The notes: a model not told the origin generated them from the sequence alone. A stretch of 64,000 bases of DNA from Candidatus Nomurabacteria bacterium RIFCSPLOWO2_01_FULL_42_17 (GCA_001785985.1 MFVE01000008.1:8751-72750), one strand, 5' to 3'. Counted from the stretch's first letter, positions 1,722 to 37,086 are shown. A program made the numbers and translations.

Positions 1722-3212
1722 TTAATTCCCCAGACTGTAATTAGGAGGTTCTTTGGTAATTATAATATCGTGCGGATGACTTTCTTCCATGCCGGATTGC
1801 GTAATTCTGACAAATTTTGCTTTTTTCTGAAAAGTTTGAATATCTTTAGATCCGCAATATCCCATGCCCGCTCGAAGACCTCCGACCAGCTGATAGATCA
1901 CTTCAGAAAGTCCGCCTTTAAAAGCGACACGACCAACGATTCCTTCTGGAACAAGTTTCTTGATGTCATTTTCCATGTCTTGAAAATATCGGTCTTTAGA
2001 ACCTTGATTCATCGCCTCGACAGATCCCATCCCGCGATAAGTTTTATATTTTCTAGCATCTAAAATTATCGTTTCACCCGGCGATTCTTCCACTCCAGCA
2101 AAAAGACTCCCAGCCATGATAGAGCTCGCCCCTGCGGCGATAGCTTTACCGACGTCTCCCGTATATCTGATGCCTCCATCCGCGATCACAGGAACACCGG
2201 AGGCCTTAATCGCTTGCGCTACTTCATAGACAGCAGAAAATTGAGGAAAGCCTACTCCCGCGATCACCCGAGTAGTACAAATTGACCCTGGTCCAATGCC
2301 CACTTTTACCGCATCGGCTCCAGCGGCAACTAAATCTCGAGCTGCTTCCGCAGTAGCGATATTGCCGACGATAACTTCTAATTTTGGAAATTCTTTTTTT
2401 ATGTGGATTAACATTTCGATTACTCCCTTGGAATGTCCATGGGCAGTATCGATGACAATCACGTCGATGCCGTTTTGATCAAGCATTTTGACTCTCTCTA
2501 GGGTATCGGCAGTTATTCCGACCGCGGCGCCCACCCGCAGGCGCCCCAGGCTGTCTCGAGAAGATTTCGGCCGAGACTTTACCTTCATTATATCTTTGAA
2601 AGTAATCAAGCCGATAAGTTTATTTTGCTTGTCCACCAGCGGGAGTTTTTCCACTCTGTGCCTCATCAATATTTTTTCGGCCTCAAATAGATCTGTGCCG
2701 ATACTGCCGGTTATCAAATTTTTCTTGGTCATTATTTCTCCGACCGGCGTGCTCATTTTTTTCTGGAAACGCAGATCGCGATTGGTCAAAATACCCACGA
2801 GCTTCATGTCTTTATCGACGATCGGAATTCCGCCAATTTTATTTTCTTGCATTATTTTGATCGCTTCTTTTACCGATGCTTTTGGTGACAGAGTAATAGG
2901 GTCATGGATCATTCCGGACTCAGAGCGTTTTACTTTGCGTACTTGTTCTGCCTGCTGCGCAATGGTCATATTTTTATGCAAAATTCCGATACCGCCTTCT
3001 TGCGCCATCGCTATCGCCATGGCTGACTCGGTGACAGTGTCCATCGCGGCGGAGATGATCGGAACGCTGATTTTTATTTTTTTAGTTAGATGCGAGGTCG
3101 TATCGACATCTCGCGGCAAGACCTCAGAATATTGTGGCACCAACAAAACATCGTCGTACGTCAAGCCCTCTTGGAAATTCTCTCTGTCTTTCGTTTTTAC
3201 TTTGGAAGCCAT
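1722..3212 (-). CDS. guaB: IMP dehydrogenase (with CBS pair)
   Basis: 496 aa. Catalytic loop [11 protein letters not shown], an inserted CBS pair ([18 protein letters not shown]), and C-terminal GGIRYTGD. Confidence 0.93.
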
Positions 3213-3237
3213 AATATATCGTGTATACTAGCATATT

Positions 3238-4794
3238 ATGGCTGATATACAAATTCTGATCGTAGATTACGGATCGCAATATACTCTGGTTATCGGCAGA
3301 ACTCTGCGCGAACTTGGCGTGCGAAGTGTGATCTTGCCTCCCAAAAAAGTTGATCTGTGGCTGAAAAATAATCACCCGAAAGCCGTCATCCTTTCCGGAA
3401 GCAATTGGAGCGTACACAACGAGGGAGCGCCTGAGGTTCCAAAATCTCTAGATATTACGGGAAAAAAATATTTAATTTTAGGCGTATGTTATGGAATGCA
3501 ACTTCTTGCACACAAGCTCGGCGGCAAAGTCGAGCGGCCACTCTCGCATCGCGAATATGGGCCAGCAGAAGTGATACTGAATACATCACATCCGCTTTTT
3601 AGGGGCGTTAAAGAAAAAACAGATGTTTGGGCAAGTCACGGAGATACAGTTATAAAATTACCAAAGGGTTTTACTAGGGTAGCCACCTCGGCAGGTTGTG
3701 CGGCGATGAGCGATAAAAATAATCGTATCCTAGGAATCCAATTTCATCCGGAAGTCGCTCACACTAAAGAAGGTAAGAAAATATTGCAAAATTTTTTAAA
3801 TATTGCTAACTGCAAAAAAGATTGGAATCCAATTGATCTAATACATCAAATCCAAAACGAAGTCTTGGATATTGTAAATCCAGCAAAAAAACAAAAAGTA
3901 ATCTTGGGAGTTTCGGGCGGGGTAGACTCTACCACTCTCGCAGCCATTTTGGCGCCTGTTTTAAAAGAAAAACTTATCTGTATAGCAATAGATACTGGCG
4001 GACTGCGAGCAGATGAACTTTTTGAATTAAAAGCAAATACTGCGAGCGCTCTAGGAACAAATCAGGGAAAAAATTCTGCAAAAAACTTTGTGATCATAAA
4101 AGCTGGCGATGAATTTATAAAAAATATCAGCGCGACTATCGATGGAGAAGAAAAAAGGGGAAAATTCCGCGAAGTTTATAAAAGAATATTTGAAGAACAA
4201 ATAACAAAATACAGTGCTGGTTTTATTGTGCAAGGAACACTCGCCACCGACATCATCGAGAGCGGAAAAGCCGGGGAGTCGGCCATGATCAAGACGCATC
4301 ACAATGTGGGCCTTTCTTGGGAGGTAGATGATTTACATCCTTTTAGAAATTTATTCAAATACGAAGTCCGCGAACTCGCCCGGGTAATGAAACTCCCCAA
4401 GACGGTGTACGAGAGAAATCCTTTTCCTGGTCCCGGACTTTTCTTGAGAGTCGTTGGCACTCCGGTCACAGCCGAAAAAATAGAACTCGTGCGTGAAGCT
4501 GATAAAACTGTCGCGGGTATTCTAAAAAAACATAATTTAGAAAAAAATATTTCCCAAGTCATCGTCGCACTCCTAGGTATCAACTCTGTCGGAGTAAAAG
4601 GGGACGAAAGAGTTTACGGACATTCTCTAGCTGTCCGAGCTGTAGAGACAGTTGATTTCATGACAGCGAAAGGATTTTATTTTCCATCAGCCGTTGTGGA
4701 AGAGATAACTAGTGCGCTGACAAAACACAAAGACATCGTGCGTGTATTTTTCGATATGACTCCGAAACCCCCAGCCACCACGGAATTTGAGTAG
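3238..4794 (+). CDS. guaA: GMP synthase (glutamine-hydrolysing)
   Basis: 518 aa. N-terminal class I GATase (ILGVCYGMQLL, HPE), ATP-PPase SGGVDS motif and a C-terminal dimerisation domain. Confidence 0.93.
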   Translation: MADIQILIVDYGSQYTLVIGRTLRELGVRSVILPPKKVDLWLKNNHPKAVILSGSNWSVHNEGAPEVPKSLDITGKKYLILGVCYGMQLLAHKLGGKVERPLSHREYGPAEVILNTSHPLFRGVKEKTDVWASHGDTVIKLPKGFTRVATSAGCAAMSDKNNRILGIQFHPEVAHTKEGKKILQNFLNIANCKKDWNPIDLIHQIQNEVLDIVNPAKKQKVILGVSGGVDSTTLAAILAPVLKEKLICIAIDTGGLRADELFELKANTASALGTNQGKNSAKNFVIIKAGDEFIKNISATIDGEEKRGKFREVYKRIFEEQITKYSAGFIVQGTLATDIIESGKAGESAMIKTHHNVGLSWEVDDLHPFRNLFKYEVRELARVMKLPKTVYERNPFPGPGLFLRVVGTPVTAEKIELVREADKTVAGILKKHNLEKNISQVIVALLGINSVGVKGDERVYGHSLAVRAVETVDFMTAKGFYFPSAVVEEITSALTKHKDIVRVFFDMTPKPPATTEFE

Positions 4795-28325: not shown

Positions 28326-29051
28326 ATGAACAAAAACAACTCGGGGGAGTATTGGGATTCCCGACTCACCCAAAGTCCGGAAAATCCATTCCCCTTAGCC
28401 CCTAAAGACTGGATTGAAAAAGTGATGGCTAAATGGAAATCTGGTAATGATGCAGAAAGGGGGAAGTATGAGAGAAAGTATCGGAAAGAAAATCGACGGT
28501 TCGGAAATTTCTGCCGCAAAAAGATGTTGGTCGAACTTAAAAACATGGATCCTGGCAGGATAAATGTTTTGGGTTTAGGCCTTCGAAGAGACATTGCGTG
28601 GACGGAAATGGCCGTTAGAATGGGGTTCGGAGTCAGTATCTGGGACATGAGTCGATTTGCGTGTGAAAACGCAAGGCGAGAGCTAATGATATTGATGAAC
28701 ATCACCCAAGTCGAGATAATGGCTGGTTGGAAATCCGGGGAAATCGATGAACAGGATGCAGTAGCATATTACGCCTGTCAATTCATCGAACACCAGGGTG
28801 ACGAATTACCAATGTTCATGCATCATTTGGGAGAATTTCTCCGGGTTCCTGGACGCAAAGTTTATTTAATCCTTCCACGTCTGGAAGACAATCCGTCCAA
28901 TAAAGTAAAATGGAACTCGGCTTCCCCACCTCTCGACCACCAATGGCAGAAACCGTTACTGGAAGGATTCGGGGGGCAACTCAATATTTATGTCTTAGGT
29001 AAGCATAAATATTTTAACCGGATGTATACATTTGTCCGGATCAGCATGTAG
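28326..29051 (+). CDS. Hypothetical protein, compositionally atypical (about 45% GC). Possible degenerate class-I SAM methyltransferase fold.
   Basis: 241 aa. INVLGLGLRRD resembles MTase motif I with the Gly-rich loop degenerated. DAVAYYACQFIEH and LRVPGRKVYLIL resemble motifs II and III. The terminator-like hairpin AGGGAG...CTCCCT plus T-run at 29064-29110 follows. Confidence 0.35.
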   Translation: MNKNNSGEYWDSRLTQSPENPFPLAPKDWIEKVMAKWKSGNDAERGKYERKYRKENRRFGNFCRKKMLVELKNMDPGRINVLGLGLRRDIAWTEMAVRMGFGVSIWDMSRFACENARRELMILMNITQVEIMAGWKSGEIDEQDAVAYYACQFIEHQGDELPMFMHHLGEFLRVPGRKVYLILPRLEDNPSNKVKWNSASPPLDHQWQKPLLEGFGGQLNIYVLGKHKYFNRMYTFVRISM

Positions 29052-29159: not shown

Positions 29160-30380
29160 ATGAAGCAAAAAATAAACACAATTTCAGAAAAAATTACTTT
29201 ACTGAATAAAACTATTCTTGACTCAATGGCGGAAAAAGACAAAGGTGCTATAGTCAAAAATTTTACTGAAAACAGCATCAAAATTTTAGGAGCTGATTTT
29301 GGCTTCGCTTGGTGGAAATTTAGCGACAGCGATGAATACAAATTGGCTTATAAAAGTCCTAGCACTCCCTACAATCCATTTTTACCAAGAAATAAAGCAA
29401 GCCATTACACGGCTATAAAAACTAGGAGACCTCTTTTTAAAAGCACGATAAAAAAAGAAGATTACGGATCATCTAATATTACTCCCTATATGAAAAGTTT
29501 TGTTATCATCCCCATTTATCATAAACAATATATTTATGGCAGCATCACATTGTGCTATAAAAAACAACACAATTTTACGGAGGAAGAAATTACTTTATCT
29601 CAAGCAATAGGACATACCACCGCTCAAGCTATCACTACCCATAGACTTCTCAAGACAGACGCTCTTCTTAGAGAAGAAAAATCCAAAACAGAGTTTATTG
29701 CAAACGCGACTCATGAGCTTCGCACTCCGCTGGCTGTCATGAAAGGCAACATAGATTTGGCGTTGATCGACAAGAAAAATTCAAAATTAGCGCATCAAGC
29801 TTTAGAAGCCGTAGACATCGAGATAGACATCCTATCTAATATCTTTAAAGATCTAGCCCTACTGACTTCTCCTAAAAATAGAAAAAATTTGATAAATCCA
29901 ATTGATATTAATATCACAAACTTGCTGGAAAAAACAATAAAAAGATTGGAAACCATAGCTGCAGAAAAAAATATAGAAATCAAAATAGAAACTCCGGAAA
30001 ACCCTAAGCATCAAAATATTTTTGTATTGGGAGATGAAGAATATTTAAATAAATTATTTCTCAATCTTATAACCAATGCCATTGCCTATGGCAAAAATGA
30101 CGGAAGTGTTTTTATCGGCATATCTAAAAACAAAGATTTTGTGAAAATAAAAATAGTAGATGACGGCATGGGCATATCAAAAGAAGATCTGCCGAAAATA
30201 TTTGACCGTTTTTATAGAGCGGACAAAGCTCATAATTCTTATGGCAATCATTCTGGGCTAGGACTCGCAATAGTAAAATGGATAACGGAAATACACGGGG
30301 GTATGATAAAAGTCCAGAGTATCCATGGTAAAGGTAGCATTTTCACCGTAACCCTACCGATCTCGTCACAGTTGAACTAG
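29160..30380 (+). CDS. Cytoplasmic sensor histidine kinase (N-terminal GAF-like domain, HisKA, HATPase_c)
   Basis: 406 aa with no TM segment. H-box HELRTPLAVMKGN, N-box NLITNAIAYGKNDGS, G1 DDGMGI, G2 GLGLAIV. Confidence 0.85.
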   Translation: MKQKINTISEKITLLNKTILDSMAEKDKGAIVKNFTENSIKILGADFGFAWWKFSDSDEYKLAYKSPSTPYNPFLPRNKASHYTAIKTRRPLFKSTIKKEDYGSSNITPYMKSFVIIPIYHKQYIYGSITLCYKKQHNFTEEEITLSQAIGHTTAQAITTHRLLKTDALLREEKSKTEFIANATHELRTPLAVMKGNIDLALIDKKNSKLAHQALEAVDIEIDILSNIFKDLALLTSPKNRKNLINPIDINITNLLEKTIKRLETIAAEKNIEIKIETPENPKHQNIFVLGDEEYLNKLFLNLITNAIAYGKNDGSVFIGISKNKDFVKIKIVDDGMGISKEDLPKIFDRFYRADKAHNSYGNHSGLGLAIVKWITEIHGGMIKVQSIHGKGSIFTVTLPISSQLN

Positions 30381-30589
30381 ACTTTTTGTGCATAAGTCTG
30401 TGGAAAAAGTTAATATAGATTTAATAATTGAAGTTATCCACATCTTATTCACAAAAAGATGCAAAAGAGCTAATTTTTGATATTGACAACAATATTCATA
30501 AAAAGTTAATATTAAAACTAGGTTAAGTTTTTTAAACAAACTAAATCTAAAAAGTCGATCAACATTAAAAAATTACGAAGAAATAAAAT

Positions 30590-30838
30590 ATGTTAAAAAA
30601 ATTTATGAAAATAAAGAAGGGGTCACAAAGTGTTCAAGAGAATAAATCTAAAAAAGAGTACGGCGTTTTAAAAATGTGCAGAAAATGTTATGCATTCCAA
30701 TACGAAAATGGATGGCATTTTGAAAAGCCTGCTCATTTACTAGAACGAGACCCAAACGAAGAAGTCACAGTGCAATTCAGCCAATGCTCTGCTTGCGTTG
30801 AAGAAGCTCTGGCTATGTATGATATGGAGTACGTTTAA
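30590..30838 (+). CDS. Small CxxC...CxxC zinc-ribbon protein, translationally coupled to the downstream alarmone synthetase. Candidate antitoxin or regulator.
   Basis: 82 aa with Cys pairs CRKC and CSAC. The stop at 30836-30838 is 1 nt before the ATG at 30840. Confidence 0.45.
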   Translation: MLKKFMKIKKGSQSVQENKSKKEYGVLKMCRKCYAFQYENGWHFEKPAHLLERDPNEEVTVQFSQCSACVEEALAMYDMEYV

Positions 30839-30839
30839 A

Positions 30840-31514
30840 ATGAATAAAACTACAGAAAGAATCCTAAAAGAATACGAAGCGAAAGCTGATTTATATAAAA
30901 AGTTTACCGATGCGATCCGTTTCCTCTTCGAGAACATACTAAAAAAGGGAGGCTATAAATATTATATTTATGCCCGCCTCAAACAGATAGAAAGCTTGGA
31001 AGAAAAAATTGAAAGAAAAAAGCTGAAAGGTAAAATATATAAAAGACTAGAAGATATAAAAGACATCGCCGGAATAAGGGTGATCTTTTATACTGAGAAG
31101 GATAGAAGAAAATTTATCTCAAAAATACAAAAAGAATTCAAAGACTCCCTAAAAATCAAAAAAACCCATAAAATATCAGGTTATCGAGCTGTTCATGCAA
31201 ATGTAGTCTTGGGAAAAGAAAGACTAAAATTAAGCGAATACGAAGCTTTTAAAGGATTAAAATGTGAAATACAACTTTGCCTCATTTTAGAGCACGCTTG
31301 GGCTGAAATCGAACATGATGTTCTATATAAAGAAAATATAAAATTGAGCGAATCCGATAAGGTTCATTATCTCCACATGAAAGACAGAATGCAAGGAATT
31401 ATGCAAAATTATATAAACAAGGCATCAGTCGAACTCGAGCGCGTTGTTTTGCAGTCTAAAAGAATAAAAAGAGATAGTGTGGGAAAATTAAAATCCGAGA
31501 TCCTCGTTCACTAA
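30840..31514 (+). CDS. RelA/SpoT-homologue small alarmone synthetase ((p)ppGpp-synthetase-type nucleotidyltransferase). Possible toxSAS.
   Basis: The ORF-track call begins at a TTG at 30798; the ATG at 30840 has a GGAG 10 nt upstream. Synthetase-domain motifs DIAGIRVIFY, GYRAVHANV and EIQLCLILEHAWAEIEHDVLYK are present. The usual RT of EIQIRT is replaced by CL. Confidence 0.75.
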   Translation: MNKTTERILKEYEAKADLYKKFTDAIRFLFENILKKGGYKYYIYARLKQIESLEEKIERKKLKGKIYKRLEDIKDIAGIRVIFYTEKDRRKFISKIQKEFKDSLKIKKTHKISGYRAVHANVVLGKERLKLSEYEAFKGLKCEIQLCLILEHAWAEIEHDVLYKENIKLSESDKVHYLHMKDRMQGIMQNYINKASVELERVVLQSKRIKRDSVGKLKSEILVH

Positions 31515-32105
31515 TATCATTCTGATTTTTCTGCCCATCATTTGATGCTCACCATTAAATGTTACGATCTTGTTGGGCGCGGTGCCGACGCCGTATTTTT
31601 CTTTCATATGCTTGTCTTCGAGTGGTATAACATAGTCATAGAGACGATTCATCGCATCCGGCAAAGTCGGAACAATTTTCTTGGTACTAACTACAAAAAT
31701 AAGATTTGGAGAGGTAAAGACTATGTGCGGTAATTGGCTCCCAGTATTCGATGCAATAATGAATTCACCTGTCTGCGCAAGAGCATGCACACTGCCTAGA
31801 TAATAATCTGAAAGAACGGCAAGCTTTCTAAGTTGCGCTTGCTTGACTGGATCTTTTTCCGCAATTATTCCTTCATGCAGATTGTTCCAGCCGTGCTTCC
31901 CTTCTTTAAGAAAATCCACGAAACCCAACTGCTCGAGCGTCACCGAAGCTCCATTCATGACCGATGCGCCTTTCGGAATGAGTTCTTTGATTTTTGCAAG
32001 TGCTTCCGATCCACTTTCCACCATAAATGCTTCCGTATTTCTCGCACTAAGAGCTTTAATAGTTTTATCTACGACTTCTTTTGTAGCTAATTGATCGTAT
32101 TTCAT
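31488..32105 (-). CDS. LUD-domain (LutC/YkgG-like, DUF162) protein
   Basis: 205 aa. Family-typical layout (ASNTGS...VVSTKKIVP) resembling lactate-utilisation LutC/YkgG. Confidence 0.6.
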   Translation of the reverse strand: MKYDQLATKEVVDKTIKALSARNTEAFMVESGSEALAKIKELIPKGASVMNGASVTLEQLGFVDFLKEGKHGWNNLHEGIIAEKDPVKQAQLRKLAVLSDYYLGSVHALAQTGEFIIASNTGSQLPHIVFTSPNLIFVVSTKKIVPTLPDAMNRLYDYVIPLEDKHMKEKYGVGTAPNKIVTFNGEHQMMGRKIRMILVNEDLGF

Positions 32106-32130: not shown

Positions 32131-32463
32131 TTAATTATTCGCATCTATTTTTGTCGCAACGATGAAGTCGTTTTCAGAGAGTCCGCCGATGGCGTGAGTG
32201 GAAAGTTCGAGAAGAACTTTATTGTAATGTATGTGAATATTTGGATGATGACCTTCTTCTTCAGCAATATCGGCGACACGCTCGACGAAATTTATCGCCC
32301 CGATAAAATCTTTAAATTTATATTCTTTGGAGATTTTTTTAGCCTCGCTGTCTAATGCCCAACCTGGAGTTTCATCTAAATAATTTTGCGCATCAGCCCT
32401 ACTGAAAGGCTTAATCCCCTTCCCTTCGCACGGTACGCACTTTTTCTTCAGTAAATCATTCAT
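32131..32463 (-). CDS. Pterin-4a-carbinolamine dehydratase (PCD/DCoH)
   Basis: 110 aa with the EEGHHPNIHIHYNKVLLELSTHA signature ([EDKH]-x3-H-[HN]-P-x5-V-x3-L-x-T-H). Confidence 0.8.
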   Translation of the reverse strand: MNDLLKKKCVPCEGKGIKPFSRADAQNYLDETPGWALDSEAKKISKEYKFKDFIGAINFVERVADIAEEEGHHPNIHIHYNKVLLELSTHAIGGLSENDFIVATKIDANN

Positions 32464-32469
32464 AAAAAA

Positions 32470-33705
32470 TTAAAGTTCATCTAAATTTAGAATATGCCCC
32501 ATTTTATTGCGCTTGGTAGTCAGATAAGAATGATTGTGTTTATTTGATTTTATTTCTATCGGAATATTTTCCACAATCTCTAGACCATACCCCGCCAGCC
32601 CCGCGCGCTTTTTTGGATTATTTGTCATAAGTCGCATTTTGGAAACACCCAAATCTCGCAGGATCTGCGCCCCGATACCATAATCTCGCTCATCCATTTT
32701 AAAACCAAGTTTTAGATTTGCATCCACAGTGTCAAAACCCTGCTCCTGAAGCTTGTATGATTTTAATTTATTTAAAAGACCTATTCCTCTGCCTTCTTGA
32801 TTCATATACACGATCACACCTTTACCTAAAGTATTTATCATCTCCATCGCCATGTGGAGCTGAGGTCCGCAATCGCAACGCAAAGAGCCAAAAATATCTC
32901 CAGTAATACAAGAAGAATGCACCCGCACCAAGATAGGCTCGTCTTTTTCCCATGTCCCTTTTACTAACGCCAAATGTTCTTCGCCTGTATCTTTGCGACT
33001 ATAAGCATATAAATCAAAATCGCCCCATTCAGCCGGCAATTTTACTTGTACTTCTCTTTTGATTAAAACTTCATTTTTTAATCTGAAAGATATTAGATCT
33101 CCAATACTGATAATTTTTAAATTAAATTTTTTCGCTATTTTGAATAATTCAGGCAGACGAGCCATCGTGCCATCTTTATTCATAATCTCGACGAGAACAC
33201 CAGCCGACCCCATGCCCGCCAAGCGCACCAGGTCAACCACTGCTTCTGTATGTCCGACTCTCCTTAAAACTCCGCCGTTCATCGCTTGAAGGGGAAAAAT
33301 ATGCCCTGGACGACCGAGGTCGTGAGGCTTTGTAGATGAATCGACTAAAGCTTGCACTGTCTTTGCTCTATCGTGAGCAGAGATGCCAGTCGTGCAACCA
33401 TGACCAAGCAAATCAACCGAAACAGTAAAAGAAGTAGAATGAAAAGAAGTATTTTTGGCAGCCATCATCGGGAGTTCAAGTTCTTTGGCTCTTTCTTCTG
33501 TGATGGGCGCGCAGACGAGTCCCCGTCCATGAATCGTCATAAAATTTATAATCTCAGGAGTCACATTTTGGGCGGAGGCAATAAAGTCTCCTTCGTTTTC
33601 CCGATTGGCATCATCCACCACGATCACAATTTTACCCGACTTGATATCTAATATAGCGTCTTCGATAGAATTTAATTTAAATTCAGTTTTTTTATTTTTT
33701 TTCAT
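32470..33705 (-). CDS. ribBA: Bifunctional 3,4-dihydroxy-2-butanone-4-phosphate synthase / GTP cyclohydrolase II
   Basis: 411 aa. DHBP synthase N-terminal half ([13 protein letters not shown]) and GCH-II C-terminal half (CDCG, EGRGIGL). Confidence 0.92.
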
Positions 33706-34172
33706 TTTAATAAAGCTAGTTCGAGAGCGGCTTCGGCCGCTTCGCCTCCGACATGGATCCTGACTTTTGCTTGTTCGAGATTGTTCATTGTTAATACACC
33801 AAAACCGACAGGAATATTGTCTTCAATCATTATCTTTAAAACTCCTTCTTGCGCCATTTTACAAACATAATCAAAGTGTGGAGTATCTCCACGAATAATG
33901 CACGCAATCGCTACTAGAAAATCATATTTTTTTGATTTTGCCAATTGGTGTAAAGCAAAAGGCATCTCCACTGCCCCAGCGACACGCACAATTTTAATAT
34001 TTTTCTCGCTGAGCTTAGATTCCTTTAGAGTTTTCAGAGCGTTCACTAAAAGCTCGTCTGTAATTTCAGAATTCCATCTAGCAACGACAATACCAGCTTT
34101 TAATTTGCTTCCATCAAAATATTTTTTATTCTTTGTTTTATTTTTTATTTGCATATTTAATAAGTATATCAA
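33702..34172 (-). CDS. ribH: 6,7-dimethyl-8-ribityllumazine synthase
   Basis: Lumazine-synthase fold ([14 protein letters not shown]). The start may be the internal Met at 34154. Confidence 0.88.
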
Positions 34173-34731
34173 ATTCTAAATTTAAAAAGTCACCCTTCTT
34201 TTTGAATTTTAAATTCGTATGTTTTAAAGTATATGGAATAATTTTCACAATAAAAGAATTACTGGAAACTTTAACAACAGTCAGACTAATCCCCTCCATT
34301 GTCACCGATCCCTTATAAACCAAAAATTTCTTGAAACTTTTAGCCGGTATTTTTATTTCAAACGCTTGTGAATTTCCTTCTTTTTTTATATTGAGAATTT
34401 CCCCTTTACCATCAATATGCCCAAGCACGATATGCCCACTTATCCTGTCGCCTAGACGCATTGATCGCTCGATATTTACTGTATCATTTTTCTTTAAAAA
34501 ACTTAAATTTGTGATCTTCAGAGTTTCTGGCATATATTCAAAATAAATATTTTTACCACCCCCGCCTTTGGATGGGGTAAATTTTTTAACAGTTGAACAA
34601 ACACCATTTACAGAAATACTTTCTCCAAGTTTTATTTTCCCTAAATTATTAGCAATTTTAACAAACAAACCATCTTTGGCTGATTTTACCTCGTTTATTT
34701 TTGAAGTTTTAGAAATTATTCCTGTGAACAT
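34138..34731 (-). CDS. ribE: Riboflavin synthase alpha chain
   Basis: 197 aa. MFTGII N-terminus and two Lum_binding repeats (SLTV... twice). Confidence 0.88.
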   Translation of the reverse strand: MFTGIISKTSKINEVKSAKDGLFVKIANNLGKIKLGESISVNGVCSTVKKFTPSKGGGGKNIYFEYMPETLKITNLSFLKKNDTVNIERSMRLGDRISGHIVLGHIDGKGEILNIKKEGNSQAFEIKIPAKSFKKFLVYKGSVTMEGISLTVVKVSSNSFIVKIIPYTLKHTNLKFKKKGDFLNLEFDILIKYANKK

Positions 34732-35054
34732 AACTGGATATCTTTTTTTATCTGAGCAATTAACTCTTCTTCTGTATTAAATTTTTGATACTCTCTCAAG
34801 AATTTTTTAGGGTGGAGAGTGACTTCTTTCCCGTATGCATCTTGACTATATCCTATCAAATGAGCTTCCACCTTTTCGGCTGGTCCTATCACAATGCCCG
34901 CGCAATATTTTTGATTTTCTAAAATTGCATCTCCAACATATACTCCGGCTTTGGGGAGCTCCTGATCATTTATTTCCAAATTCACTGTCGGAAATCCAAT
35001 CTTCCTGCCATATCCGTCGCCCTTCACTACCTTGCCTGAAATTGTGTATTGCAT
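34716..35054 (-). CDS. Riboflavin kinase domain protein (RibF C-terminal-type)
   Basis: 112 aa. G.GRKIGFPTVN and E.H flavokinase motifs. No FAD-synthetase domain is present. Confidence 0.75.
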   Translation of the reverse strand: MQYTISGKVVKGDGYGRKIGFPTVNLEINDQELPKAGVYVGDAILENQKYCAGIVIGPAEKVEAHLIGYSQDAYGKEVTLHPKKFLREYQKFNTEEELIAQIKKDIQLCSQE

Positions 35055-36736: not shown

Positions 36737-37086
36737 ATATAACCTTTCTTTTTACTATATTTTGAAATCACTTACATGGGTGGATTCCTGCACCTGAGAA
36801 TTTAAAGTTTTCACAAACTTTTTTTATTATCAAAGAACAAAAAGTGACGCTCATGCGCCACTTAATGGATTCCCTGTTTTAAATAGTTTAAAAAGAAATC
36901 AACAGAGTAGCGCAAAAGCAAATGCCTTTCCGCCCCACCAAGATTTCATTAATTTATTTATTTTAAATTGATTTTTCATATTTGTCTTCGTGCATCCTCC
37001 TATCCATGCACTAGTGCATGGTAGCATACTATAAAAAGTCTGCAACTACTAAAAATTACAGACTGTGGATAACTCTCCACTAAAGT

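What the first reader, a model, noticed from the sequence alone, without database searches (positions are those of the whole stretch)
30590..31514. Small zinc-ribbon ORF translationally coupled to a RelA/SpoT-type small alarmone synthetase, a candidate toxSAS toxin-antitoxin or regulator pair
The 82-aa CxxC...CxxC ORF stops 1 nt before the ATG of a 225-aa single-domain (p)ppGpp-synthetase homologue (DIAGIRVIFY, GYRAVHANV, EIQLCLILEHAWAEIEHDVLYK). Stand-alone SAS enzymes with a tightly linked small partner gene are the architecture of toxic SAS toxin-antitoxin modules, where some toxins pyrophosphorylate tRNA or make (p)ppApp. The synthetase has CL in place of the normally invariant RT of EIQIRT, hinting at altered substrate chemistry. 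The pair sits downstream of a cytoplasmic histidine kinase with no response regulator nearby, so it may instead be a signalling output.
Basis: partly seen in the sequence, partly recalled or inferred. Interest (0 to 1): 0.65.

Follow-up and report, generated by a model that had tools for sequence, protein, structure and literature searches.

The report
Two-component-controlled zinc-ribbon plus alarmone synthetase operon
A small zinc-binding protein gene and a stand-alone alarmone (ppGpp-type) synthetase gene in a Nomurabacteria genome most likely form the output operon of a neighbouring two-component sensor system rather than a toxin-antitoxin pair, and the synthetase belongs to an unstudied branch lacking one normally conserved arginine.

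Summary
An 82-aa four-cysteine ORF (30590-30838) stops 1 nt before a 224-aa single-domain RelA/SpoT synthetase (SAS, 30840-31514) that reads EIQLCL where EIQIRT is usual.

The toxin-antitoxin reading is poorly supported.
- The zinc-ribbon (ZR) gene sits upstream of the synthetase in only 7 of 59 loci of its clade.
- At least nine ZR genes, five of them close homologues, have no synthetase beside them, yet stay up to 85-89% identical in the core to SAS-linked ones.
- One relative has an ECF sigma gene between the two.
- ZR shows no similarity to known toxSAS antitoxins.
- The SAS model is closest to housekeeping RelQ/RelP, not CapRel.

The constant partner is an OmpR-type response regulator gene, divergent from ZR in 11 relatives. 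They share a conserved promoter with a tandem TTATNCACA-N2-TTATNCACA repeat about 49 bp upstream of the -35. This window keeps the promoter and the GAF histidine kinase, but the regulator gene has been deleted.

The missing arginine is a trait of the whole clade, in which all catalytic residues remain invariant.

Best reading: a sensor-controlled alarmone synthetase operon, analogous to RelP/RelQ under VraRS/WalKR. ZR's function is unknown. Moderate interest.

The parts
29160..30380 (+). Cytoplasmic GAF-HisKA-HATPase_c histidine kinase (406 aa), the sensor of the associated two-component system
   Evidence: Pfam GAF_2 2.2e-8, HisKA 1.8e-11, HATPase_c 1.7e-25. 72.6% nt identity to the kinase of syntenic L164. 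GAF kinases in the same position in L164 and L001.
30387..30426 (+). Deletion scar: 40 nt homologous to the region just 3' of the response-regulator gene in the syntenic relative. The regulator gene itself is missing.
   Evidence: blastn: window 30387-30426 = L164 2801-2840 (85%) and window 30431 onward = L164 3612 onward. L164 2841-3611, which holds the RR gene 2851-3519, is therefore absent.
30434..30453 (+). Tandem direct repeat TTATCCACA-TC-TTATTCACA (11-bp period), the inferred OmpR/PhoB-type response-regulator operator
   Evidence: Present with <=2 mismatches in all 11 regulator-ZR intergenic regions examined. It starts 48-49 bp upstream of the -35 (39 in L164) in the nine loci where a TTGACA was found. 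Absent from the two ZR loci without a regulator. 3 of the 6 TTATNCACA matches in the 64-kb window lie within 67 bp here.
30387..30395 (-). Third, inverted copy of the box (TTATGCACA)
   Evidence: Function not tested.
30483..30516 (+). Sigma-70-like promoter: -35 TTGACA (30483-88), 18-nt spacer, -10 TAATAT (30507-12), inside the conserved block AAAAAGTTAATATTAAA (30500-16)
   Evidence: 10 of 12 matches. The block is conserved in 9 related loci.
30553..30562 (+). Conserved leader motif AGTCGATCAA in the 5' UTR, function unknown
   Evidence: No Rfam match and no significant RNA fold.
30590..30838 (+). ZR: 82-aa four-cysteine zinc-ribbon protein with a Lys-rich disordered N-terminus, a beta-ribbon core and an acidic C-terminal helix ending LAMYDMEYV
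   Evidence: No Pfam, NCBIfam or PADLOC family. No significant PDB fold or sequence match.
30826..30829 (+). GGAG Shine-Dalgarno-like element for the synthetase, inside the last codons of ZR
   Evidence: Read directly from the sequence.
30840..31514 (+). SAS: 224-aa single-domain RelA/SpoT-type pyrophosphokinase of an arginine-less clade (EIQLCL)

Best explanation
ZR and SAS form one transcription unit that is the output operon of an adjacent OmpR-family two-component system. Shown: the operon has a conserved sigma-70-like promoter. Its -35 is preceded by a tandem direct repeat with an 11-bp period at a fixed distance. In relatives, an OmpR-type response regulator gene starts divergently about 170-340 bp upstream of ZR, and a GAF histidine kinase lies beside it in the two closest syntenic relatives. 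Inferred: the phosphorylated regulator binds the repeat and switches on ZR-SAS, and probably its own gene. SAS then transfers pyrophosphate from ATP to a purine nucleotide, making a (p)ppGpp-type alarmone as a stress output. This matches how RelP/RelQ are induced by VraRS or WalKR in Firmicutes. SAS keeps every ATP-binding and catalytic residue, so it should be an active pyrophosphokinase. Its acceptor is not established, because the clade has replaced the Arg of EXQXR(T/S). ZR is the constant first gene of this regulator-controlled unit and works independently of SAS. My low-confidence guess is a small zinc-dependent adaptor or feedback modulator of the signalling module or its downstream effector. 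In this genome the regulator gene has been cleanly deleted. The operon is therefore either constitutive or silent from its core promoter, or it is served by a regulator encoded elsewhere.
For: Regulator next to ZR: an OmpR-type regulator (Response_reg + Trans_reg_C) lies divergent to ZR in L001, L004, L081 (partial), L163, L164, L162, L176, L177, L169 and in the P0138 and P0131 contigs.
Operator: the tandem box is present in all 11 regulator-ZR intergenic regions, 48-49 bp (one at 39) upstream of TTGACA where a -35 was found. It is absent in L167 and L170, which have no regulator.
Synteny: PepN, hypothetical, GAF kinase, [regulator], ZR, SAS and a convergent gene are shared with L164 at about 72% nt identity, with only the regulator segment missing here.
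Two-component linkage: a regulator or kinase lies within 3 kb in 8 of the 13 closest SAS loci, including L003, L005 and L006, which have no ZR. The figures are 3 of 46 for other clade members and 4 of 105 for the outgroup.
SAS as an enzyme: R46, K48, K56, D75, G78, R80, G114, Y115, H119, E143, Q145 and H159 are 100% conserved in 51 clade sequences. They map onto the SaRelP ATP and Mg2+ ligands (PMC5794853). The AF2 model has pLDDT 91, and its nearest folds are RelQ 5DEC and RelP 6EWZ/6FGK at E about 1e-9.
Precedent: relP/relQ belong to the VraRS regulon and relP is under WalKR (PMC10117726).
Against: No regulator gene is present in this window, so regulation here is by analogy with relatives. 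Regulator binding to the repeat is inferred from architecture only. The repeat also matches the DnaA-box consensus TTATCCACA. No expression or enzymatic data exist. The acceptor substrate is unknown because of the missing Arg. Tight ZR-SAS spacing in four loci (1-5 nt) is also compatible with a protein-protein partnership. ZR's own function remains a guess.
Confidence: 0.6

Rival explanations
1. Type II toxSAS toxin-antitoxin module. SAS is a growth-arresting toxin (tRNA pyrophosphorylation or (pp)pApp synthesis). ZR is its antitoxin, a genuine zinc-finger counterpart of the pseudo-zinc-finger antitoxins (ATfaRel2, CapRel pZFD), and blocks the ATP site with tyrosines of its C-terminal YDMEY.
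For: A small upstream ORF 1-5 nt from SAS in the window, L081, L164 and L001. Known tRNA-targeting toxSAS are neutralised by pZFD-fold domains that use a YXXY motif stacking on the two adenine-sandwiching arginines (PMC11782079). Those arginines (R46, R80) are conserved here. ZR has conserved Tyr77 and Tyr81.
Against: ZR is beside SAS in only 7 of 59 clade loci. At least nine ZR genes have no SAS: P0138, P0134, P0128, P0136, P0131, P0172, P0178, P0180 and P0182. SAS-less ZRs keep the YDMEY tail and are 85-89% identical in the core to a SAS-linked one, and the two kinds interleave in the tree. L165 and L177 are syntenic with and without SAS, with no remnant. An ECF sigma gene separates ZR and SAS in L163. 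The gap is 29 and 80 nt in L004 and L165. The ZR profile against the CapRel pZFD gives hhalign probability 0.3%. Foldseek and PDB searches find no antitoxin. The motif is YxxxY in an alpha-helix, not YXXY in a 3-10 helix. SAS is nearer RelQ/RelP than CapRel and matches only the SYNTH part of the PADLOC CapRel model. Phage homologues are weak. The context is housekeeping and syntenic.
Confidence: 0.08
2. ZR is a non-toxic post-translational partner. It would be a zinc- or redox-sensitive switch or adaptor that binds whichever effector follows it (SAS, ECF sigma, PAS protein) and gates its activity, adding a second input to the two-component output.
For: ZR is always the first gene and is followed by varied regulatory effectors: SAS (7 loci), ECF sigma (L163, L166), PAS protein (L167). 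It has a Cys4 site and a conserved acidic C-terminal helix suited to protein binding. It is closely spaced to SAS in four loci.
Against: In five close homologues ZR is monocistronic, with no effector downstream. One adaptor recognising unrelated folds is unparsimonious. There is no ZAS (HxxxCxxC) motif and no similarity to known anti-sigma or DksA/TraR families.
Confidence: 0.2
3. The TTATCCACA repeats are DnaA boxes, so the operon is coupled to DnaA and replication status rather than to the response regulator.
For: 30434-30442 is a perfect match to the canonical DnaA box, with two more near-consensus copies within 67 bp.
Against: The repeat co-occurs strictly with an adjacent OmpR-type regulator gene and is absent where the regulator is absent. 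Tandem direct hexamers with an 11-bp period at a fixed distance from the -35 are the classic OmpR/PhoB-family arrangement (own knowledge: B. subtilis PhoP TT(A/T/C)ACA-N5 repeats, WalR TGTWAH-N5-TGTWAH). No dnaA, dnaN or origin features were seen nearby.
Confidence: 0.07

Closest known systems
RelP/RelQ (SAS2/SAS1) small alarmone synthetases of Firmicutes, transcriptionally induced by VraRS, WalKR or ECF sigma factors
   Same: Single SYNTH domain of about 210-230 aa with long N- and C-terminal helices. All ATP, Mg2+ and acceptor-stacking residues are conserved. They are the nearest solved folds. Control by a cell-envelope two-component system is the documented mode of regulation (PMC10117726).
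   Different: Only about 20-23% identity. Fails the NCBIfam YjbM equivalog cut-off (40 bits against 320). Lacks the Arg of EIQIRT (SaRelP R178). Here the regulator, kinase and synthetase are physically clustered, with a small zinc-ribbon gene in front.
toxSAS toxin-antitoxin modules (FaRel2/ATfaRel2, PhRel2, bipartite and fused CapRel)
   Same: A SYNTH-domain protein preceded by a small ORF. The known antitoxins have a (pseudo) zinc-finger fold and use tyrosines to block the ATP site (PMC11782079, PMC7229694).
   Different: The partner is not conserved across the SAS clade and exists without it. There is no sequence or Foldseek similarity to the pZFD. CapRelSJ46 keeps EVQLRT. The locus is not mobile or in a defence island. 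The PADLOC CapRel model matches only the SYNTH core.
About 350-375-aa SAS proteins with a helical C-terminal extension (group B; Bacillus toyonensis, Exiguobacterium, Mucilaginibacter, Clostridia MAGs)
   Same: The closest sequence relatives outside the clade (about 110 bits, 36-43% identity over the SYNTH domain). They share HAWAEIEHD..YK.
   Different: They keep EIQIR[ST], T83 and Q151. They carry an extra domain of about 150 aa and are not linked to two-component genes.
OmpR/PhoB-family autoregulated divergent operons (such as PhoP and WalR boxes)
   Same: Tandem direct repeats with an 11-bp period at a fixed distance upstream of a -35, in the intergenic region next to the regulator's own gene.
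   Different: The box sequence (TTATNCACA) is not a described regulon motif and coincides with the DnaA-box consensus. The regulator gene is deleted in this genome.

Membership tests
RelA/SpoT homologue (RSH) small alarmone synthetase | SYNTH domain (Pfam PF04607) above the gathering threshold, with no HD or regulatory domains | tested here: met
   58.8 bits against a cut-off of 27, residues 46-166 of 224. No other domain found.
RelA/SpoT homologue (RSH) small alarmone synthetase | ATP-binding and catalytic residues: adenine-stacking Arg pair, Lys/Ser/Arg phosphate ligands, Asp and Glu Mg2+ ligands, acceptor-stacking Tyr | tested here: met
   R46/R80, K48, S52, K56, R59, D75, E143, Y115 and H159 align with SaRelP R78/R112, K80, S84, K88, R91, D107, E174 and H190. 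The core set is 100% conserved in 51 clade sequences.
RelA/SpoT homologue (RSH) small alarmone synthetase | Arg of the EXQXR(T/S) motif | tested here: not met
   EIQLCL here. Position 147 is T 78%, or V, L or C, in the clade, against R 94% in group B. R is also present in CapRelSJ46 and RelQ.
RelQ (YjbM) orthologue | NCBIfam equivalog NF053588 above its cut-off | tested here: not met
   40 bits against a cut-off of 320.
toxSAS toxin-antitoxin module | Bicistronic arrangement conserved across the SAS subfamily | tested here: not met
   ZR lies upstream in 7 of 59 clade loci, all within the nearest subclade (7 of the 13 closest). No other conserved neighbour was found.
toxSAS toxin-antitoxin module | Partner gene dependent on the toxin, not maintained alone | tested here: not met
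   At least 9 ZR genes have no SAS, with 85-89% core identity to SAS-linked ZR.
toxSAS toxin-antitoxin module | Antitoxin homologous to a known class (pZFD/ATfaRel2/PAD1, Tis1-like, SAH, Panacea) | tested here: not met
toxSAS toxin-antitoxin module | Toxicity of the SAS and neutralisation by the partner | not testable with these tools
   Needs expression assays.
toxSAS toxin-antitoxin module | Phylogenetic membership in FaRel, FaRel2, PhRel, PhRel2 or CapRel | tested here: inconclusive
   Not CapRel: PADLOC PDC-S33 gives 60 bits on the SYNTH part only, against 290 bits full-length for CapRelSJ46. Phage homologues are weak, E>=1e-9. FaRel, FaRel2, PhRel2 and Tas1 sequences could not be obtained.
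OmpR/PhoB-type response-regulator target operon | Tandem direct-repeat operator with a period of about 11 bp at a fixed position relative to the promoter | tested here: met
   30434-30453, 49 bp upstream of the -35, conserved in 11 loci.
OmpR/PhoB-type response-regulator target operon | Cognate regulator present and binding the operator | tested here: not met
   No receiver-domain ORF in the 64-kb window. The gene is deleted relative to L164. Binding is not testable here. The regulator is present in 11 relatives.

The most novel reading that the evidence does not exclude
The arginine-less SAS clade may have a changed acceptor chemistry (for example (pp)pApp, pGpp or a non-guanine target). ZR may be a genuine Cys4 zinc-finger inhibitor or sensor that docks its C-terminal Tyr-containing helix into the SAS ATP site. 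That would be an ancestral, metal-bearing counterpart of the pseudo-zinc-finger antitoxins. Together they would give ultra-small Patescibacteria a two-component-triggered, zinc/redox-gated growth-arrest switch. ZR would then have been retained for a second role where SAS was lost.
Probability: 0.1. Interest if true: 0.7.

Novelty: new variant of a known kind. Interest (0 to 1): 0.4.

Why it matters
Patescibacteria (CPR) have tiny genomes and largely unknown stress physiology. A compact cluster of kinase, regulator, small zinc protein and alarmone synthetase, with a readable operator, would be a directly testable example of how these organisms wire an environmental sensor to nucleotide second-messenger synthesis. 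The SAS clade, found in Patescibacteria, Syntrophia, NC10 and some Proteobacteria MAGs, keeps all catalytic residues but has lost the Arg of EXQXR. It is therefore a natural experiment on what that residue does and on acceptor specificity. The ZR family (46 clusters at 50% identity, no annotation) is a new small protein tied to response regulators and ECF sigma factors. The result is also a caution against calling toxin-antitoxin pairs from 'small ORF plus SAS' architecture alone.

Tried and rejected
- CapRel kinship. The 360-375-aa nearest relatives looked like fused CapRel, but their best PDB match is RelQ at 72 bits with no CapRel hit. PADLOC PDC-S33 turned out to be CapRel itself and matches only the SYNTH core here.
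- ZR as a DksA/TraR-type, ZAS anti-sigma or NMD3-like protein. Only sub-threshold NMD3 and eS26 zinc-ribbon pattern matches appeared.
- A riboswitch or structured leader in the conserved 5' UTR. No Rfam hit, and the fold z-score is -0.46.
- Role of the missing Arg. The RelP/RelQ and Rel modelling papers read do not assign it, and Manav et al. 2018 is not held.
- Subfamily name from Jimmy et al. 2020. The supplements are not held.
- FaRel2, Tas1 or PhRel2 sequences for comparison. They were not retrievable by PDB phmmer with the CapRel core.
- A foreign island. GC is somewhat low (0.30-0.36) across the kinase-ZR-SAS stretch, but similar dips occur elsewhere and synteny with L164 argues for vertical inheritance.

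Full report
**Source and observation**

The window comes from Candidatus Nomurabacteria bacterium RIFCSPLOWO2_01_FULL_42_17. Both proteins are 100% identical to its hypothetical proteins A2917_01390 and A2917_01395.

The ORF 30590-30838 encodes 82 aa with CxxC at residues 30-33 and 66-69. Its TAA (30836-38) is followed by one base and then ATG 30840, which opens a 224-aa ORF ending at 31514. A GGAG sits 10 nt before that ATG. Thirty-two homologues start at the same position, so the upstream in-frame TTG at 30798 can be ignored. The 224-aa protein has a RelA_SpoT SYNTH domain (E 7.7e-16) and nothing else. The upstream gene is a GAF-HisKA-HATPase kinase.

**The synthetase**

The database holds about 33 close homologues of 209-258 aa. 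The next relatives are many proteins of 350-375 aa.

Scans of genomes and metagenomes, plus loci fetched later, gave 59 loci forming a coherent clade ('clade A'). It occurs in Patescibacteria and also in Syntrophales, NC10, Lysobacterales and other MAGs.

- Almost every clade-A member is a single-domain protein of about 205-270 aa, with a few longer ORFs or fusions (L024, L026, L027). Every member lacks the Arg of EXQXR(T/S). Position 147 is T in 78% of sequences and otherwise V, L or C.
- The 350-375-aa relatives ('group B') have R at that position in 94% of sequences. CapRelSJ46 (EVQLRT) and RelQ also keep it.
- The change is coupled to F83 (100% in clade A, T in group B) and to loss of Q151.
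- All residues that in SaRelP bind ATP and Mg2+ or stack the acceptor are invariant in 51 unique clade sequences (mapping from PMC5794853). The enzyme is therefore under selection as a pyrophosphokinase.

CapRel, which modifies tRNA, keeps the Arg, and so do the RelQ chains aligned and the RelP numbering from the literature. Its loss therefore does not point to any known toxSAS chemistry. I could not find the role of this Arg in the papers available.

**Placement of the synthetase**

- PDB sequence search: RelQ and RelP score about 35 bits, CapRel 27 bits.
- The AF2 model (pLDDT 91.3) is closest to RelQ 5DEC and RelP 6EWZ/6FGK (E about 1e-9, target-normalised TM-score 0.67-0.74). CapRel ranks 30th, and no FaRel2 or Tas1 appears in the top 50.
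- It fails the RelQ equivalog cut-off.
- The PADLOC hit PDC-S33 is the CapRel model. CapRelSJ46 scores 290 bits over its full length, while this protein scores 60 bits on the SYNTH part only.
- Group B is not CapRel either.
- Phage-encoded homologues are few and weak.

**The small protein (ZR)**

ZR has 17 close homologues. A full scan of 1.84 billion representative proteins found 46 matching clusters, all but three weak matches being 58-105 aa. C30, C33, W42, C66 and C69 are invariant, and F36 and P47 are nearly so.

AF2 predicts a disordered Lys-rich N-terminus, a short beta-ribbon core and a C-terminal helix (residues 67-81), with core pLDDT 84-96.

No Pfam, NCBIfam or PADLOC family matches. 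Foldseek against PDB finds nothing significant; the best hit, at E 0.74, is the Zn(Cys)4 domain of Fur/Zur. A profile search of PDB finds nothing. Profile comparison with CapRelSJ46, which carries the pseudo-zinc-finger antitoxin domain, gives probability 0.3%.

**Is ZR the partner of the synthetase?**

ZR lies directly upstream of SAS in these loci:

| Locus | ZR-SAS gap | SAS identity to the window |
|---|---|---|
| window | 1 nt | - |
| L081 | 1 nt | 67% |
| L164 | 2 nt | 69% |
| L001 | 5 nt | 72% |
| L004 | 29 nt | 51% |
| L165 | 80 nt | 59% |

In L163 an ECF sigma gene sits between ZR and SAS.

ZR is absent from the other 52 clade-A loci. That includes close relatives L002, L003, L005 and L006 (49-54% identity), and no other neighbour is conserved there.

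Conversely, ZR occurs without any SAS:
- Five close homologues: P0138, P0134, P0128, P0136 and P0131.
- Four distant ones, followed by an ECF sigma (P0172), a PAS protein (P0178), an unknown ORF (P0180) or an SPW protein (P0182).

L165 (ZR, SAS, LamG, CAP) and L177 (regulator, ZR, LamG, CAP) are syntenic with and without SAS, and L177 holds no SAS remnant. SAS-less ZRs keep the same C-terminal YDMEY(V/A). They are 85-89% identical in the core to the SAS-linked ZR of L165, and the two kinds interleave in a neighbour-joining tree. ZR therefore has a function that does not depend on SAS.

**What is constant**

An OmpR-type response regulator gene (Response_reg + Trans_reg_C) lies divergent to ZR in 11 contexts. 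A GAF kinase lies next to it in L164 and L001, and other histidine kinases lie nearby in L004, L163 and L169.

The intergenic region is conserved at the nucleotide level. It contains:
- a tandem direct repeat TTATNCACA-N2-TTATNCACA (window 30434-30453), whose start lies 48-49 bp (39 bp in L164) upstream of the -35 in the nine loci where a TTGACA was found;
- a -35 TTGACA (30483-88);
- a block AAAAAGTTAATATTAAA containing the -10 (30500-16);
- a leader motif AGTCGNTNAA (30553-62).

The repeat is absent from the two ZR loci that lack a regulator. In the window, 3 of the 6 TTATNCACA matches fall within 67 bp here. Tandem hexamers with an 11-bp period at a fixed distance from the promoter are the standard OmpR/PhoB-family operator layout (own knowledge). 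The sequence also equals the DnaA-box consensus, which I keep as a minor rival.

Independently of ZR, two-component genes lie within 3 kb of SAS in 8 of the 13 closest SAS loci. The figures are 3 of 46 for other clade members and 4 of 105 for group B.

**This genome is the exception**

Against the syntenic L164 (PepN, hypothetical, GAF kinase, 69-aa ORF, regulator, then ZR, SAS and a convergent gene; about 72% nt identity), the alignment is as follows:
- window 30387-30426 matches the 40 nt just 3' of the L164 regulator gene;
- window 30431 onward matches L164 3612 onward;
- the 771 bp holding the regulator gene, and the 69-aa ORF region, are missing.

The deletion ends 3 bp from the operator. 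No receiver-domain ORF exists in the whole window. 'No response regulator nearby' is thus a derived deletion.

**Mechanism proposed**

- Shown: operon structure, conserved promoter and operator, linkage to the regulator and kinase, intact catalytic residues, and independence of ZR from SAS.
- Inferred: the phosphorylated regulator activates ZR-SAS, and SAS makes an alarmone as the stress output. This parallels relP/relQ under VraRS and relP under WalKR (PMC10117726).
- Unknown: the acceptor nucleotide, the role of ZR, and how the operon is controlled here without its regulator.

L163 extends the unit to ZR, ECF sigma, SAS, a P-loop protein, NUDIX and a kinase. This hints at a self-contained alarmone synthesis and turnover cluster.

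**Verdict**

The toxin-antitoxin reading gets a confidence of about 0.08. The signalling-output reading is the best explanation at about 0.6, and a non-toxic ZR-effector partnership gets about 0.2. Interest is moderate (0.4). This is a new variant of a known kind, a SAS under two-component control, and it involves two uncharacterised families: the arginine-less SAS clade and the ZR zinc ribbon.

Noticed in passing
window 30381-30433, compared with L164 2460-3611: The response-regulator gene and a 69-aa ORF present between the GAF kinase and ZR in the syntenic relative are cleanly deleted here. The deletion ends 3 bp from the operator and leaves an apparently intact orphan kinase.
   Followed up: yes
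window 30404-30416 and 30500-30512: An exact 13-nt direct repeat AAAAAGTTAATAT. The downstream copy is the conserved -10 block. The upstream copy lies in the scar segment homologous to the region 3' of the regulator gene in L164. It may relate to the deletion event.
   Followed up: partly
window 30434-30442 (also 30387-30395 on the minus strand and 37064-37072 on the minus strand): The inferred regulator box is identical to the canonical DnaA box TTATCCACA. Whether DnaA also binds here is open.
   Followed up: partly
L163 1011-5019: In a 66%-identical relative the unit is: regulator, divergent to ZR, ECF sigma, SAS (4-nt overlap), AAA_18 P-loop protein, NUDIX hydrolase, histidine kinase. This is a possible complete alarmone synthesis and degradation cluster under one sensor.
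   Followed up: partly
L026 5929-9003 and L027 5950-9021: Two Patescibacteria MAGs encode proteins of about 1025 aa with an N-terminal arginine-less SAS domain fused to a long uncharacterised C-terminal region.
   Followed up: no
L081 1256-1405, L017 6620-6751, L105 890-1036, L177 2057-2170, and the P0138 contigs (DUF6496): A very basic 37-65-aa protein (MAKRSTTLSPKKKSRRSHKTKKRL...) is repeatedly encoded convergently just downstream of ZR or SAS. The P0138 neighbours carry Pfam DUF6496.
   Followed up: no
window 31488-31514: The 3' end of SAS overlaps the 3' end of the convergent LUD-domain gene (31488-32105, minus strand) by 27 nt. The convergent gene in L164 shows the same 27-nt overlap.
   Followed up: partly
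window 28326-29051: A 241-aa protein with no Pfam or NCBIfam match lies between aminopeptidase N and the kinase. A 233-aa gene occupies the same position in L164.
   Followed up: no
L029-L080 and L110-L160 (for example L046, Bacillus toyonensis): A widespread group of 350-375-aa SAS proteins with a helical C-terminal extension. They keep EIQIR[ST], are closer to RelQ than to CapRel, and have no conserved two-component neighbours. Their function is unexamined.
   Followed up: partly
window 32131-35054, minus strand: Housekeeping genes lie downstream: pterin-4a-carbinolamine dehydratase (Pfam), then a run of ORFs that by sequence inspection look like a riboflavin operon (ribBA-, ribH-, ribE-like and a 112-aa riboflavin-kinase-like ORF). 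This is ordinary and argues for a core chromosomal context.
   Followed up: no
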